This document shows, one piece after another, positions 31,781 to 50,387 of a stretch of DNA of 64,000 bases; position 1 is the stretch's first letter; every line of letters begins with the position of its first letter. Both the position numbers and the translations under genes were made by a program. The notes beneath the pieces were generated by a model. The model saw only the letters and a list, made by a program, of their open reading frames with translations. It was not told the origin of the DNA and did not search any database. The DNA comes from Bacteroidales bacterium (lineage in GTDB: Bacteria; Bacteroidota; Bacteroidia; Bacteroidales; GCA-2748055), in the NCBI GenBank assembly GCA_021738565.1, contig JAIPBT010000002.1:7774-71773 (forward strand), written 5' to 3'.

Positions 31781-31870
31781 CGCCAACTGGCGGATCATGG
31801 CTCGGTTCAGTCATCGATCCCGATGGCTATCGGGATGCTCTTGTCGCTTTCATATCAAGCACTGCAAAAT
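31781..31870. repeat. degenerate core of the repeat family (hairpin ATCCCGAT-ggct-ATCGGGAT)
   Basis: The order GGCGGATCATGG … TCATCGATCCCGATGGCTATCGGGATGCTCT … TCAAGCACTG parallels GGCTGGATCATAATG … GTCCCGATATATTTCGGGATGAGC … GCAAGCACTA inside the 41122-41419 element. Confidence 0.35.
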
Positions 31871-48303: not shown

Positions 48304-48378
48304 GGTGGATGTAGCTCAGCAGGTTAGAGCGCTGGATTGTGGTTCCAGAGGTCGCCGGTTCGAACCCGGTCCTCCACC
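48304..48378 (+). tRNA. tRNA-His (GUG)
   Basis: Cloverleaf read by hand: G-1 + GTGGATG / TA / GCTC-AGCAGGTTA-GAGC / G / CTGGA-TTGTGGT-TCCAG / AGGTC / GCCGG-TTCGAAC-CCGGT / CCTCCAC + C73. The anticodon is GTG. The extra 5' G pairing with C73 is the His identity element. CCA is not encoded. Confidence 0.9.
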
Positions 48379-48390
48379 CAACAAGGAATA

Positions 48391-48420
48391 CCGCCTGGCT
48401 TTTGCCTGGCGGTTTTTTTT
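48391..48420 (+). terminator. intrinsic terminator after tRNA-His
   Basis: CCGCCTGGC-tttt-GCCTGGCGG (one mismatch) followed by T8. Confidence 0.75.
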
Positions 48421-48422
48421 AT

Positions 48423-48454
48423 AAAAAAGGGGATGCGATGTGCACCCCCTTTTT
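48423..48454. terminator. second, bidirectional terminator-like hairpin
   Basis: A6-GGGGATGC-gatgt-GCACCCCC-T5. The stem has one A/C mismatch and is flanked by an A-run and a T-run, so it could act in either direction. Confidence 0.5.
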
Positions 48455-48715
48455 ACTAACCACTTAAACCTAAAAAAAGAACTTGTCTTAACCCGTTAAT
48501 TAATCTAAAAGGACTTATAATTTGTTCATTATATAAGTTACAATCTGCATGCCAAAATTTTTAAGTAATTAAAAACCAATAATTTGTATTTATTATTGAT
48601 ATGTAAAGAGTCATAATTAGGTGGTCGCATTTGGTACAATTGCGTACGAAAATGAACGATTTTAACATTTTTAAATCGCCGGTTGGCTTGTTCGCAGGAT
48701 GGGATGAAAGGATAC

Positions 48716-48746
48716 AAAAAAAGCAGATCCGTACCGATCTGCTTTT
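48716..48746 (-). terminator. intrinsic terminator downstream of the DUF2147 gene
   Basis: On the minus strand: GCAGATC-ggtacg-GATCTGC followed by T7 (plus-strand A-run 48716-48722). Lies about 50 nt after the stop at 48794. Confidence 0.7.
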
Positions 48747-48793
48747 ATGTTGCCGAAGCAACTATTGTGTTTAGGTGAAGTGATTTAGCTGTT

Positions 48794-49243
48794 CTATTTT
48801 TTTCTTTTCCAAATGGTTTCCCTTCCAAGAAATTTTATTCCAAGTACATATCCTTTCAAATACAGGACATCATAGTTCCCGTTTTCAAACCATGCATAGC
48901 AGGAATAGGTTTTGCCATTATCCGGATCATAGATGGTCCCGCTGTCCCACCTGTCCTTATTTGAATTGTATTCGAATGCCCGCAAAATTTTTAGTCCAAG
49001 TATGGGTTGATTTATTTTATCAGGATCCGGATTCTCATCGTCTACCTTGGGTTTTCCGAATTCATCATTGGGTTCCATGAGCCAGTTGATATGCCCGATG
49101 TATTTTCCATTGGTGTGTTTGGTGATCTCGACTGACGATGAATCATTTTCTGTGAACCATACTCCGGTTATCCTGTAAGCCTGGGCTGATATGAAAACAG
49201 GGATCAGTAAAAACAGGGCAACAATAAAAAGTACTTTTTTCAT
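48794..49243 (-). CDS. DUF2147 domain secreted protein
   Basis: 149 aa with a signal peptide. …GVWFTE…IEI…GKYIG…D.ENPDP…RPILGL…YDPDNGKTYSC… is the DUF2147 pattern. Confidence 0.7.
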   Translation of the reverse strand: MKKVLFIVALFLLIPVFISAQAYRITGVWFTENDSSSVEITKHTNGKYIGHINWLMEPNDEFGKPKVDDENPDPDKINQPILGLKILRAFEYNSNKDRWDSGTIYDPDNGKTYSCYAWFENGNYDVLYLKGYVLGIKFLGRETIWKRKK

Positions 49244-49458
49244 CTTGATAGTTTTTGGTTTGAAGTCGAAAATTAAGATTTTTTTTGATTATTACAACAT
49301 ATCGTGCTTTTATGCTGAATTTTAATCCTCCTTCGCGTTCCGCTACGGAGGACGCTTAGGAAGAGGTTTAATTCCTCGGAGTTCTACTTCGAAAATATGA
49401 GTTCATCCCGATATATCATCGGGATACTCTGAGGTTTAATACCATTTAATTTATTCAA

Positions 49459-49494
49459 ATATATATATTTATATAGTGATATAAATATATATAT
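49459..49494. repeat. 36-nt A/T-only perfect palindrome (16-bp stem, 4-nt loop)
   Basis: ATATATATATTTATAT-agtg-ATATAAATATATATAT. All 16 positions pair. It directly abuts the G+C-rich block. Confidence 0.85.
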
Positions 49495-49790
49495 GCCACA
49501 GGACAGGGGCCATGAGCCAGGGGGGGCAATTCGTCAGTGAGACGGTGCGACAGTGCGGTAATGAGCAGTCCCTCGATAGGCTCGGGAACCGGCGGGTTGG
49601 GGTGTGAGGAGGGAAGATCGAGCTTGTCGAGATCGGTTCCTAACAAAAAAGACCGGTTCCTGAGCGAAGAGGTGAGCTTCGCCGAACCTCGATCCGAAGG
49701 ACCTGGGATATAACCCACCCTTTTCCCATACGTAATAATGTACTCCGCCTAGCTGACAGCCGGGGGATTTAACTCATTAGAACAGGAAGT
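49495..49790. ncRNA. candidate unclassified structured RNA (G+C-rich ORF-free island)
   Basis: About 55-60% G+C by hand count, against ~10% in the 54 nt upstream. Stops occur in all frames. There are several mutually exclusive helices (see findings). Strand and ends are unknown. Confidence 0.25.
49645..49688 (-). terminator. terminator-like extended hairpin, about 200 nt downstream of the folA stop
   Basis: On the minus strand: GGTTC-g-GCGAAG-ctcacct-CTTCGC-tcag-GAACC, then GGTC, then T6. The 4-nt spacer before the T-run lowers confidence. Confidence 0.4.
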
Positions 49791-49886
49791 AAATTATTAC
49801 ATAAAATAAGCGTAATATATTAGACCGGCGCCATTAATATATACATTGAAGCACTTTGTTTCAGATCAGAGCGAAAATCATTTGTA

Positions 49887-50387
49887 TCAATGAATGCGTT
49901 TGTAGAAATGAAAAGTATGTGGAAAGTCGTTTTTTGCATCAGCATCCACGAATTCTGATTCAACTTCTTTCCAATGTGAGGGATCAATTTCAGGGAAGAA
50001 AGTATCGGCATCGAAAGTATGATGTACCCTTGTAAGGTATAATTTCCCGGCAATGGGCAGCAATTGACGATACACCATGCCACCTCCCATAACAAAGCAC
50101 TCTTCGCCAGTGCCTGCCAGTTCAAGGCCCTCTTCCAATGAATATGCCATTTCACAACCCTCAAATTTCTCATTTTCAATATTGGTGATCACGATGTTCC
50201 TCCTGTTGGGCAATGCTCCTTTGGGTAAAGACAGATAGGTATTCCTTCCCATCATTACAGCATGACCGGAAGTGATTTTTTTGAATCTTTTCAGGTCATC
50301 AGAAAGGTGCCAGAGCAGCTTATTGTCCTTTCCAATGGCATTGTTTTCAGCGATGGCTACGATGATGGAAATATTTTCTCTGATCAT
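49887..50387 (-). CDS. folA: dihydrofolate reductase
   Basis: 166 aa. …IVAIAENNAIGKDNKLLWHLSDDLKRFKKITSGHAVMMGRNTYLSL… is the DHFR signature. Lies 9 nt downstream of thyA. Confidence 0.92.
   Translation of the reverse strand: MIRENISIIVAIAENNAIGKDNKLLWHLSDDLKRFKKITSGHAVMMGRNTYLSLPKGALPNRRNIVITNIENEKFEGCEMAYSLEEGLELAGTGEECFVMGGGMVYRQLLPIAGKLYLTRVHHTFDADTFFPEIDPSHWKEVESEFVDADAKNDFPHTFHFYKRIH

What the first reader, a model, noticed from the sequence alone, without database searches (positions are those of the whole stretch)
49495..49790. Unassigned G+C-rich, ORF-free, highly structured block between DUF2147 and folA: candidate novel RNA
Seen: the 643-bp gap between 49243 and 49887 has no credible ORF. 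A ~300-nt block within it is ~55-60% G+C by hand count, against ~10% just upstream. It contains mutually exclusive pairings:
- GGAACCGG (49585-49592) is complementary to both members of the direct repeat ATCGGTTCCT / ACCGGTTCCT (49632-49641 and 49652-49661).
- The second repeat member is also the 5' arm of the extended hairpin GGTTC-ctga-GCGAAG-aggtgag-CTTCGC-c-GAACC (49655-49688).
- Read on the minus strand, that hairpin is followed by GGTC and T6, which is terminator-like, about 200 nt after the folA stop.
- There is also a local stem TGGG-atataa-CCCA (49704-49717) and a G-rich tract (49591-49616).

Known: in A/T-rich genomes, G+C-rich non-coding islands usually mark structured RNAs.

Inference, three options:
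- a 3'-UTR-derived or independent sRNA on the minus strand;
- a long regulatory leader of the DUF2147 gene;
- cargo of a decayed mobile element, since the family hairpin at 49405-49425 lies just to the left.

From memory I could not match it to the consensus features of RNase P, tmRNA, SRP, 6S, TPP, cobalamin, SAM, ZTP or c-di-AMP RNAs.
Basis: partly seen in the sequence, partly recalled or inferred. Interest (0 to 1): 0.6.

Follow-up and report, generated by a model that had tools for sequence, protein, structure and literature searches.

The report
Two-copy GC-rich noncoding repeat after folA
The G+C-rich, gene-free block after folA is real and matches no known RNA family, but its core is a repeat found twice in this one uncultured Bacteroidales genome and missing from its closest relatives, so it looks more like inserted repeat DNA than a proven new RNA.

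Summary

"Highly structured" does not hold. Folding energies are no better than shuffled sequence (z -0.05 to -1.4).

No Rfam family matches. There is no protein homology, no tRNA or tmRNA, and no period-3 signal.

All syntenic relatives (DUF2147 82-83% identical, one from the same sample) have a folA-DUF2147 spacer of only about 103-114 bp. About 540 bp is therefore lineage-specific extra DNA.

The key new result is a second copy. Window 49582-49722 (141 nt) is 82% identical (86% over the central 122 nt) to a stretch on another contig of what is very probably the same MAG. There it abuts a short-chain dehydrogenase (SDR) gene cut off after 25 codons. Substitutions show no codon phase. A 42-nt hairpin segment is nearly invariant. 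The T6 that makes the window hairpin terminator-like is not conserved.

Two copies cannot establish covariation. Best reading: a small family of noncoding repeats of probably mobile or foreign origin. A paralogous small RNA (sRNA) gene remains possible. Interest is low to moderate.

The parts
49301..49886 (.). Lineage-specific extra DNA between the folA stop and the conserved DUF2147 upstream block. Relatives have about 45-50 nt here.
   Evidence: Spacer is 103-114 bp in L083, L084, L087, L088 and L093, and about 60-210 bp in L003-L013. Homology to relatives stops at 49300 and at the folA stop.
49495..49790 (.). The plus strand is G-rich (G 80, C 55 in 49496-49725).
49582..49722 (.). Repeated core. 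The window minus strand aligns to L107 5067-5206 plus strand: 141 nt, 81.6% identity, with 86% over the central 122 nt.
   Evidence: E 7e-36; nhmmer. No codon phase in the 25 substitutions, which fall 10/8/7.
49651..49692 (.). Most conserved segment: 42 nt differing from the paralogue by a single 1-nt indel.
   Evidence: P about 0.01 for such a stretch if the 26 differences were placed at random.
49645..49695 (-). Terminator-like structure on the folA strand: an interrupted 17-pair hairpin (49695 to 49651/49650) followed by U6 (49650 to 49645), about 190-240 nt after the folA stop.
   Evidence: Fold (-19.3 kcal/mol, z -0.15). Not flagged by the simple terminator scan. The U run is AATAAT in L107.
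49580..49665 (.). Long-range inverted repeat GCTCGGGAACCGG (49580-49592) / CCGGTTCCTGAGC (49653-49665), kept in both copies (11 perfect pairs in L107). It is mutually exclusive with the 49655-49688 hairpin.
   Evidence: (I6), and (the MFE uses this helix in both copies and on both strands).
49632..49641 (.). Not conserved in the paralogue, which reads ATATGCTCCT.
49459..49494 (.). A+T-only palindrome (16-nt perfect arms, 4-nt spacer) directly next to the island.
   Evidence: (I1).
49456..49463 (-). The only perfect match to the Bacteroidetes -7 promoter motif TAnnTTTG in the gap. It points towards DUF2147. It lies in a 48-nt A+T-rich block weakly similar to the stretch just upstream of the GH97 gene in L107.
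   Evidence: 64.6% over 48 nt, E 0.03; 16 of 500 shuffles. The motif consensus is from my own knowledge of Bacteroides promoters.
49244..49300 (-). Native DUF2147 upstream block, conserved in relatives. It includes TAATTTTC at 49275-49268.
49405..49425 (.). Hairpin ATCCCGAT-atatc-ATCGGGAT inside the extra DNA. One other copy of the stem is at 31818-31835.

Best explanation
The island is part of about 540 bp of extra DNA that entered the folA-DUF2147 spacer in this lineage only.

Its 141-nt core (49582-49722) belongs to a small family of G+C-rich noncoding repeats. At least two diverged copies exist in what is very probably the same uncultured Bacteroidales genome.

I read it as a relic of mobile or foreign DNA, copied between intergenic sites by transposition or illegitimate recombination. 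I do not read it as a conserved regulatory RNA of folA or DUF2147.

Shown:
- it is an insertion relative to relatives;
- it is repeated;
- it is not coding;
- the hairpin segment is the best-conserved part.

Inferred:
- On the gene strand, the window copy happens to place a hairpin plus U6 about 200 nt after folA, and this probably ends the folA transcript.
- The A+T block after it carries a TAnnTTTG motif that could add a promoter in front of DUF2147.
- The repeat would then act locally as a terminator-promoter spacer, as a by-product of insertion.
For: - Absent at the syntenic site in every relative retrieved, including one from the same sequencing run.
- A second copy lies on a different contig (L107). 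Its ORF product is MCF8225937.1; the window's DUF2147 and folA products are MCF8224404.1 and MCF8224405.1. All are 'MAG: Bacteroidales bacterium' from run SRR12088348.
- The L107 copy starts right after a 25-codon SDR-like N-terminus (adh_short positions 1-26, E 0.016). No rest of that gene is present, so the copy is associated with a disrupted gene.
- No coding signal: six-frame searches found nothing, period-3 is absent, substitutions fall 10/8/7 by phase, and there is an indel in the most conserved part.
- It is the most extreme G+C stretch of the window, which is consistent with foreign origin.
- Logan contigs of the same run stop at 49349 and 49797, on either side of the island. This is expected for repeated or polymorphic DNA.
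- In the GC-IGR surveys, many long G+C-rich intergenic regions have no homologues, or fewer than 5 representatives, and stay unclassified (PMC6429828).
Against: - No terminal inverted repeats and no significant direct repeats lie at the borders of the extra DNA. The 9-bp ATTATTACA at 49288-49296 and 49793-49801 occurs 3 times in the window.
- Only 141 of about 540 extra bp are shared with the other copy.
- No transposase or recombinase gene is nearby.
- Only two copies are known. No third copy was found in the window or in 112 loci.
- A 42-nt near-invariant segment suggests some constraint, which a dead relic would not need.
- The Logan breaks could simply reflect low coverage. Another break lies at about 48449, and contigs of this genome are only 1-20 kb.
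- The U run of the terminator-like hairpin is not conserved.
Confidence: 0.42

Rival explanations
1. Paralogous small RNA genes. The core encodes a structured sRNA of about 140-240 nt, present in at least two diverged copies. It is most likely read from the G-rich strand (window plus strand, antisense to folA and DUF2147). A 12-bp closing helix would enclose two inner helices, in competition with the 49655-49688 hairpin.
For: - G+C-rich island in a 43% G+C genome.
- The two-sequence consensus fold is stronger on the plus strand (-40.5 against -29.2 kcal/mol). Four G.U to A-U changes and one A-U to U.G change all keep the pairs, and these would be A.C mismatches on the other strand.
- Differences concentrate in predicted linkers: A6 becomes ATTATT, and the 49632-49641 repeat changes.
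- The closing helix is chosen in the MFE of both copies.
- The hairpin segment is near-invariant.
- Both copies have the same orientation relative to co-directional flanking genes.
Against: - The consensus structure was fitted to these two sequences, so 100% compatibility is by construction and the shuffle control is uninformative (252 of 500).
- In the unbiased test, the window-only MFE checked on L107 breaks 7 of 43 pairs on the plus strand (P 0.08) and 4 of 40 on the minus strand (P 0.026).
- MFE z-scores are ordinary.
- No TAnnTTTG promoter motif lies upstream on the G-rich strand in the window (TATATTTA only). By eye I saw none in L107 either.
- No conserved terminator on either strand.
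- No Rfam family.
- Absent from relatives.
Confidence: 0.27
2. It is only the folA 3' UTR and intrinsic terminator (minus strand), possibly giving a 3'-UTR-derived sRNA, with no meaning beyond ending folA transcription.
For: - Hairpin of 17 pairs followed directly by U6 on the folA strand, about 200 nt after the stop.
- This genome does use hairpin plus U-run terminators, for example after DUF2147 at 48746-48719.
Against: - Relatives manage with a spacer of about 100 bp without it.
- The U run is AATAAT in the paralogue, while the hairpin itself is conserved. The conserved feature is therefore not a terminator.
- This does not explain 49495-49644, or the second copy next to a truncated gene.
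- The simple terminator scan did not flag it.
Confidence: 0.1
3. Decayed fragment of a protein-coding gene (a pseudogene), possibly from a G+C-rich donor.
For: - Foreign-looking composition.
- An 87-97-codon open frame runs on the minus strand.
- The paralogue is fused to a real SDR-like start.
Against: - No hit in six frames against 5.8 billion proteins (both reached the 8000-candidate limit, and one search missed P0094, whose own sequence was in the query). Exhaustive phmmer of the open frame found only the ORF called on the paralogous DNA.
- No Pfam hit apart from the SDR start in L107.
- No period-3 signal in composition (P 0.28) or in substitutions.
- A 1-nt indel lies in the most conserved part.
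Confidence: 0.06
4. Local misassembly of the MAG: a foreign fragment bridged in between the A+T-rich low-complexity stretches at 49455-49495 and 49810-49850.
For: - An independent Logan assembly of the same run does not join folA and DUF2147. It stops at 49797 and 49349.
- The island is flanked by A+T-only repeats.
Against: - A homologous but clearly different copy (14-18% divergent) sits in a contig of similar G+C. That contig was recovered both by NCBI and by Logan, so the sequence type belongs to this organism.
- The Logan break points are not at the A+T repeats.
- Both flanks are syntenic.
Confidence: 0.05

Closest known systems
Unclassified long G+C-rich intergenic regions of the GC-IGR surveys ('unnamed' or 'low-ranking candidate', Breaker laboratory; PMC6429828, PMC8632094)
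   Same: Long, G+C-rich intergenic region in a lower-G+C genome. No ORF, no known RNA, and fewer than 5 representatives, so no consensus model can be built (for the categories).
   Different: This one is shown to be an insertion relative to syntenic relatives, and to have a diverged second copy very probably in the same genome. That points to repeat or mobile DNA rather than a gene-associated motif.
Miniature non-autonomous elements: MITEs, and IS200/IS605-derived palindrome-associated elements
   Same: Short, noncoding, and present in more than one copy per genome. It is present or absent between close relatives, lies next to a disrupted gene in one copy, and has a conserved hairpin near one end of the shared block.
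   Different: No terminal inverted repeats. No convincing target-site duplication. Only two copies seen. No cognate transposase could be looked for, because the rest of the genome is not available here.
Multicopy paralogous bacterial sRNAs (for example Qrr1-5, OmrA/B; from my own knowledge)
   Same: Two copies of 80-86% identity in unrelated intergenic sites of very probably one genome. A conserved hairpin segment sits between more variable parts.
   Different: No promoter or terminator conserved between the copies, no expression data, and an unusually high G+C content and length for a base-pairing sRNA.
Rho-independent terminator
   Same: On the folA strand the window copy has a G+C-rich interrupted hairpin followed at once by U6.
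   Different: The U run is not conserved in the paralogue, and the stem is bulged. The conserved unit is much larger than a terminator.
Yfr1 (RF01116) and Cyano-1 (RF01701)
   Same: The minus strand contains CUCCUCACACC, as in the unpaired Yfr1 motif. These are the only Rfam alignments listed for the island.
   Different: Scores are 12.9 and 14.9 bits against gathering scores of 38 and 41, with E 4.7 and 6.4. The motif reads AUCUCACAUCC in the paralogue. The phylum is also wrong. This is a chance resemblance.

Membership tests
Any Rfam 15 family | Covariance-model score at or above the family's gathering score | tested here: not met
   Whole window: only tRNA at 48305-48378. At E up to 10 on 49200-49950, on 49480-49810 and on the L107 copy, only sub-threshold chance hits appear. 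ARAGORN finds only tRNA-His.
cis-regulatory leader or riboswitch of DUF2147 | Lies between the gene's promoter and its start codon, and is conserved with the gene | tested here: not met
   Relatives with DUF2147 59-83% identical lack it. The conserved upstream block is 49244-49300 only.
Structured RNA family (novel) | Base pairs supported by compensatory changes beyond what relatedness gives | tested here: inconclusive
   Only two sequences are available. There is one double change and five one-sided changes in a structure fitted to them. The unbiased test gives P 0.08 (plus strand) and 0.026 (minus strand).
Structured RNA family (novel) | Folds more stably than sequences of the same composition | tested here: not met
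   z-scores from -0.05 to -1.4.
Rho-independent terminator (folA strand) | G+C-rich hairpin followed immediately by a U run | tested here: met
   Window copy: stem 49695-49651, then U6 at 49650-49645. The simple scan did not flag it because of the bulges.
Rho-independent terminator (folA strand) | The feature is kept in homologous copies | tested here: not met
   L107 has the hairpin, but AATAAT in place of T6. No terminator-like site was found in L107 4700-5460.
MITE / non-autonomous IS derivative | Terminal inverted repeats | tested here: not met
   The best inverted match between the two borders is no better than shuffles (470 of 1000 reach it).
MITE / non-autonomous IS derivative | Target-site duplication | tested here: inconclusive
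   A 9-bp ATTATTACA lies at 49288-49296 and 49793-49801, but it is A+T-rich and occurs 3 times in the window. No significant direct repeat was found.
MITE / non-autonomous IS derivative | Several copies per genome, and present or absent between relatives | tested here: met
   Two copies. Absent at the syntenic site in all relatives. The copy number in the full genome could not be determined.
IS200/IS605-type palindrome-associated element | Subterminal hairpins recognised by a Y1 transposase (TnpA) encoded elsewhere in the genome, with insertion next to a fixed tetra- or pentanucleotide | not testable with these tools
   A conserved hairpin lies about 30 nt from one end of the shared block. The rest of the MAG cannot be searched here, and two copies do not define the ends.
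Pseudogene / decayed coding sequence | Detectable protein homology, or codon-phase signal | tested here: not met
   homology; phase.

The most novel reading that the evidence does not exclude
The 141-nt core is the gene for a new structured RNA that travels with, or is all that remains of, a small mobile element in uncultured Bacteroidales. One example would be an orphan guide-type or bridge-type RNA of a transposon. Another would be a new multicopy regulatory RNA whose conserved 42-nt hairpin is the protein- or target-binding module.
Probability: 0.12. Interest if true: 0.6.

Novelty: new member of a known kind. Interest (0 to 1): 0.27.

Why it matters
If the core turned out to be a transcribed, structured RNA with more members, it would be a new Bacteroidales RNA class from uncultured sediment-type lineages. 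It might be linked to DNA mobility.

As it stands, it mainly shows that the rule 'a G+C-rich intergenic island means a structured RNA' can be met by inserted repeat DNA. Synteny with close relatives and a search for paralogous copies are cheap tests that change the reading.

It has no bearing on folate metabolism or on DUF2147 function. Relatives lack it.

Tried and rejected
**Searches that found nothing**
- Rfam at gathering score and at E up to 10, on three ranges and on the paralogue.
- blastn 'distant' against phages and plasmids.
- Copies elsewhere in the window.
- A two-sequence nhmmer profile against the window and 112 loci: no third copy.
- Exact look-up of the 87-aa and 58-aa ORFs: not on record.
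- A paper search for the run accession.

**Searches limited by the tools**
- The two six-frame concatenated protein queries returned no hit, but both reached the 8000-candidate limit. The second also missed P0094, whose own sequence was in the query. I treat them as weak negatives.
- The single metagenome scan used the 19-mer GGGAACCGGCGGGTTGGGG and returned 12 chance matches in high-G+C contigs. In hindsight this stretch is not conserved in the paralogue, so the scan was poorly aimed.
- Six viral scans gave only chance matches. The L108 hit lies inside a 279-codon ORF.

**Ideas rejected**
- A resemblance to the RNase P RNA P10-P12 region and to the cobalamin riboswitch core, recalled from memory. 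cmscan lists neither, even at E up to 10.
- Integron attC and group II intron domain V, by inspection of the hairpin geometry.
- Homology of the flanks beyond the 141-nt block. The left flank is not significant. The right flank 49491-49581 scores no better than its reverse-complement control.
- A remnant of the SDR start upstream of the window copy. No local alignment and no tblastn hit.
- Terminal inverted and direct repeats at the insertion borders.
- The 'family hairpin' as a repeat family. Only the stem recurs, once.

Full report
**Context**
- The window is 42.6% G+C and comes from an uncultured Bacteroidales genome.
- On the minus strand the gene order is thyA (51191-50397), folA (50387-49887), a 643-bp gap, then the DUF2147 gene (49243-48794). 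A canonical hairpin plus U-run terminator follows at 48746-48719, and a tRNA-His lies at 48305-48379 on the plus strand.
- The proteins are MCF8224404.1 and MCF8224405.1, 'MAG: Bacteroidales bacterium', on a 144-kb NCBI contig. They also occur in the Logan assembly of run SRR12088348.

**Check of the observation**
- The gap is the longest gap between ORFs of at least 110 aa in the window.
- G+C reaches 0.55-0.64 between 49500 and 49750, next to an A+T-only palindrome at 49459-49494.
- 49496-49725 is 58.7% G+C. Only 0.014% of windows of that size are as high.
- The 13-nt inverted repeat 49580-49592 / 49653-49665 is somewhat longer than chance gives (7 of 300 shuffles reach it).
- 'Highly structured' is not borne out. 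MFE z-scores are -0.05 and -0.25 on the plus strand, -1.3 and -1.4 on the minus strand, and -0.15 for the hairpin region alone.

**What it is not**
- It matches no Rfam family at gathering score. At E up to 10 only chance alignments appear.
- It is not a tRNA or tmRNA.
- It is not coding. No frame has homologues. There is no period-3 composition (P 0.28). The internal ORFs are not on record as called genes.
- It has no match in phage or plasmid records and no other copy in the window.

**Synteny**
- The closest species-level genomes (folA up to 74-75% identical) keep folA next to the DUF2147 gene, with a spacer of about 60-210 bp and nothing resembling the island.
- Closer relatives were reached through the DUF2147 protein (82-83% identity). 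They are L083/L084, L087/L088, and L093, which comes from the same run. Their spacers are 103-114 bp.
- Similarity to the window is confined to 49244-49300, the native upstream block of the DUF2147 gene, and to the end of folA.
- Roughly 49301-49886 is therefore extra DNA specific to this lineage.
- This rules out a conserved leader of DUF2147.
- No protein between 83% and 100% identity exists in the 15-billion-protein collection, and the exact proteins occur only in this one run. Within-species comparison is therefore impossible with the data at hand.

**A second copy**
- Exhaustive phmmer with the open minus-strand frame across the island found one hit among 1.84 billion representatives. It is a 72-aa 'hypothetical protein', P0094 = MCF8225937.1, locus tag K9J30_08670.
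- Its accession lies about 1,500 after those of the window proteins, and it comes from the same run. It is therefore very probably from the same MAG, on another contig (67 kb at NCBI; a 20-kb Logan contig, fetched here as the 8,125-nt locus L107).
- At the DNA level, window 49722-49582 (minus strand) aligns with L107 5067-5206. The alignment is 141 nt at 81.6% identity, E 7e-36. The central 122 nt are 86% identical.
- Beyond this block the similarity is not significant. One exception is a weak match between two A+T-rich promoter-like stretches (E 0.03).
- In L107 the block sits in a 644-bp gap between a redoxin gene and a GH97 gene. It begins exactly where a short-chain-dehydrogenase-like reading frame (MKNVVITGSSRGIGYGLALEYLKGG; adh_short positions 1-26, E 0.016) loses all resemblance to that family. 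This copy is therefore associated with a truncated gene.

**What the comparison says**
- The 25 substitutions fall 10/8/7 by codon phase, and a 1-nt indel lies in the best-conserved part. The block is noncoding.
- Conservation is uneven. 49692-49651 (42 nt) differs only by that indel (P about 0.01).
- The long-range pairing GGGAACCGG / CCGGTTCC is kept in both copies and is perfect over 11 bp in L107.
- The T6 that makes the minus-strand hairpin look like a terminator reads AATAAT in L107.

**Structure**
- RNAalifold on the two copies gives a stronger consensus on the G-rich plus strand (-40.5 against -29.2 kcal/mol). Four G.U/A-U changes and one double change keep the pairs.
- That structure was fitted to these two sequences, and the shuffle control is uninformative.
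- An unbiased test took the MFE of the window copy alone and asked how many pairs the L107 differences break. On the plus strand 7 of 43 pairs break (P 0.08). On the minus strand 4 of 40 break (P 0.026).
- Structure conservation is therefore suggested at most, and the strand is not decided.

**Mobility signatures**
- No terminal inverted repeats or significant direct repeats lie at the borders of the extra DNA.
- A 9-bp ATTATTACA flanks 505 bp, but it is A+T-rich and occurs three times in the window.
- The Logan contigs of the same run end at 49349 and 49797, either side of the island. This would fit repeated or polymorphic DNA.
- Contigs of this genome are short in that assembly, and another break lies about 900 bp away, so this is circumstantial.

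**Interpretation**
- The best-supported reading (0.42) is inserted repeat DNA. The island carries a member of a small family of G+C-rich noncoding repeats of probably mobile or foreign origin. In the window copy it happens to place a hairpin plus U6 after folA and an A+T block with a TAnnTTTG motif before the DUF2147 gene.
- A paralogous structured sRNA gene is the main rival (0.27).
- The lesser rivals are a plain folA terminator or 3' UTR (0.10), a decayed gene (0.06) and a misassembly (0.05).
- The mobile-DNA and sRNA readings are not strictly exclusive, because a mobile element can encode an RNA.

**Comparison with the known**
- By the criteria of the GC-IGR surveys this would be an 'unnamed' or 'low-ranking' candidate, with fewer than 5 representatives and no consensus model (PMC6429828).
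- That paper notes that many selected G+C-rich intergenic regions have no homologues, and that only about a fifth yield RNA candidates.
- The element fails the tests for MITE membership (no inverted repeats), for a conserved terminator, for a leader of DUF2147, and for every Rfam family.
- It behaves like a small dispersed repeat.

**Limits**
- The key question of how many copies exist, and where, could therefore not be answered here.

Noticed in passing
L107 5001-5219 (Logan SRR12088348_519; NCBI MCF8225937.1): The annotated 72-aa 'hypothetical protein' is a chimera. It joins 25 codons of a short-chain-dehydrogenase start to the translation of the noncoding repeat. It is almost certainly not a real protein.
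   Followed up: partly
window 48449, 49349 and 49797 (ends of Logan contigs L002 and L001): Three contig breaks fall within 1.35 kb in the independent Logan assembly of the same run. Two of them bracket the island. The cause (repeat, strain polymorphism or low coverage) was not resolved.
   Followed up: partly
window 49405-49425 and 31818-31835: The same 7-8-bp palindromic stem (A)TCCCGAT...ATCGGGA(T) occurs in two intergenic spacers between co-directional minus-strand genes. 0.00 copies are expected by chance. There is no similarity outside the stem, and none in the other 112 loci.
   Followed up: partly
window 49459-49494: A perfect A+T-only palindrome (16-nt arms, 4-nt spacer) lies directly next to the G+C island. 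A weaker A+T-rich counterpart lies at 49833-49847.
   Followed up: no
window 49363-49375 and 49431-49443: The direct repeat GAGGTTTAATTCC / GAGGTTTAATACC flanks the 49405-49425 hairpin. CCTCGGAGT (49374-49382) and ACTCTGAGG (49426-49434) are complementary, so a longer imperfect hairpin is possible. This part of the extra DNA is not shared with L107.
   Followed up: no
L092 1-251 (relative, DUF2147 82% identical): Upstream of the DUF2147 gene this relative has 21-nt tandem repeats (GCATCCTGAAAAATGCTGAAT and variants) running to the contig end, instead of the usual short spacer. The spacer upstream of this gene seems to be a variable spot.
   Followed up: no
window 49598-49611, minus strand: CUCCUCACACC is identical to the core of the unpaired Yfr1 motif of cyanobacteria. 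The score is sub-threshold (12.9 bits) and the motif is not conserved in the paralogue. Judged a coincidence.
   Followed up: yes
window 48719-48746, minus strand: A textbook intrinsic terminator (11-bp stem, then a T run) lies right after the DUF2147 gene. It shows that this organism uses hairpin plus U-run terminators.
   Followed up: no
window 48380-48793 versus L087-L090: Downstream of the DUF2147 gene the window has tRNA-His and a 445-aa membrane protein gene. The 82%-identical relatives have a 411-aa GldL_N-like gene instead. Synteny ends at the DUF2147 gene.
   Followed up: no
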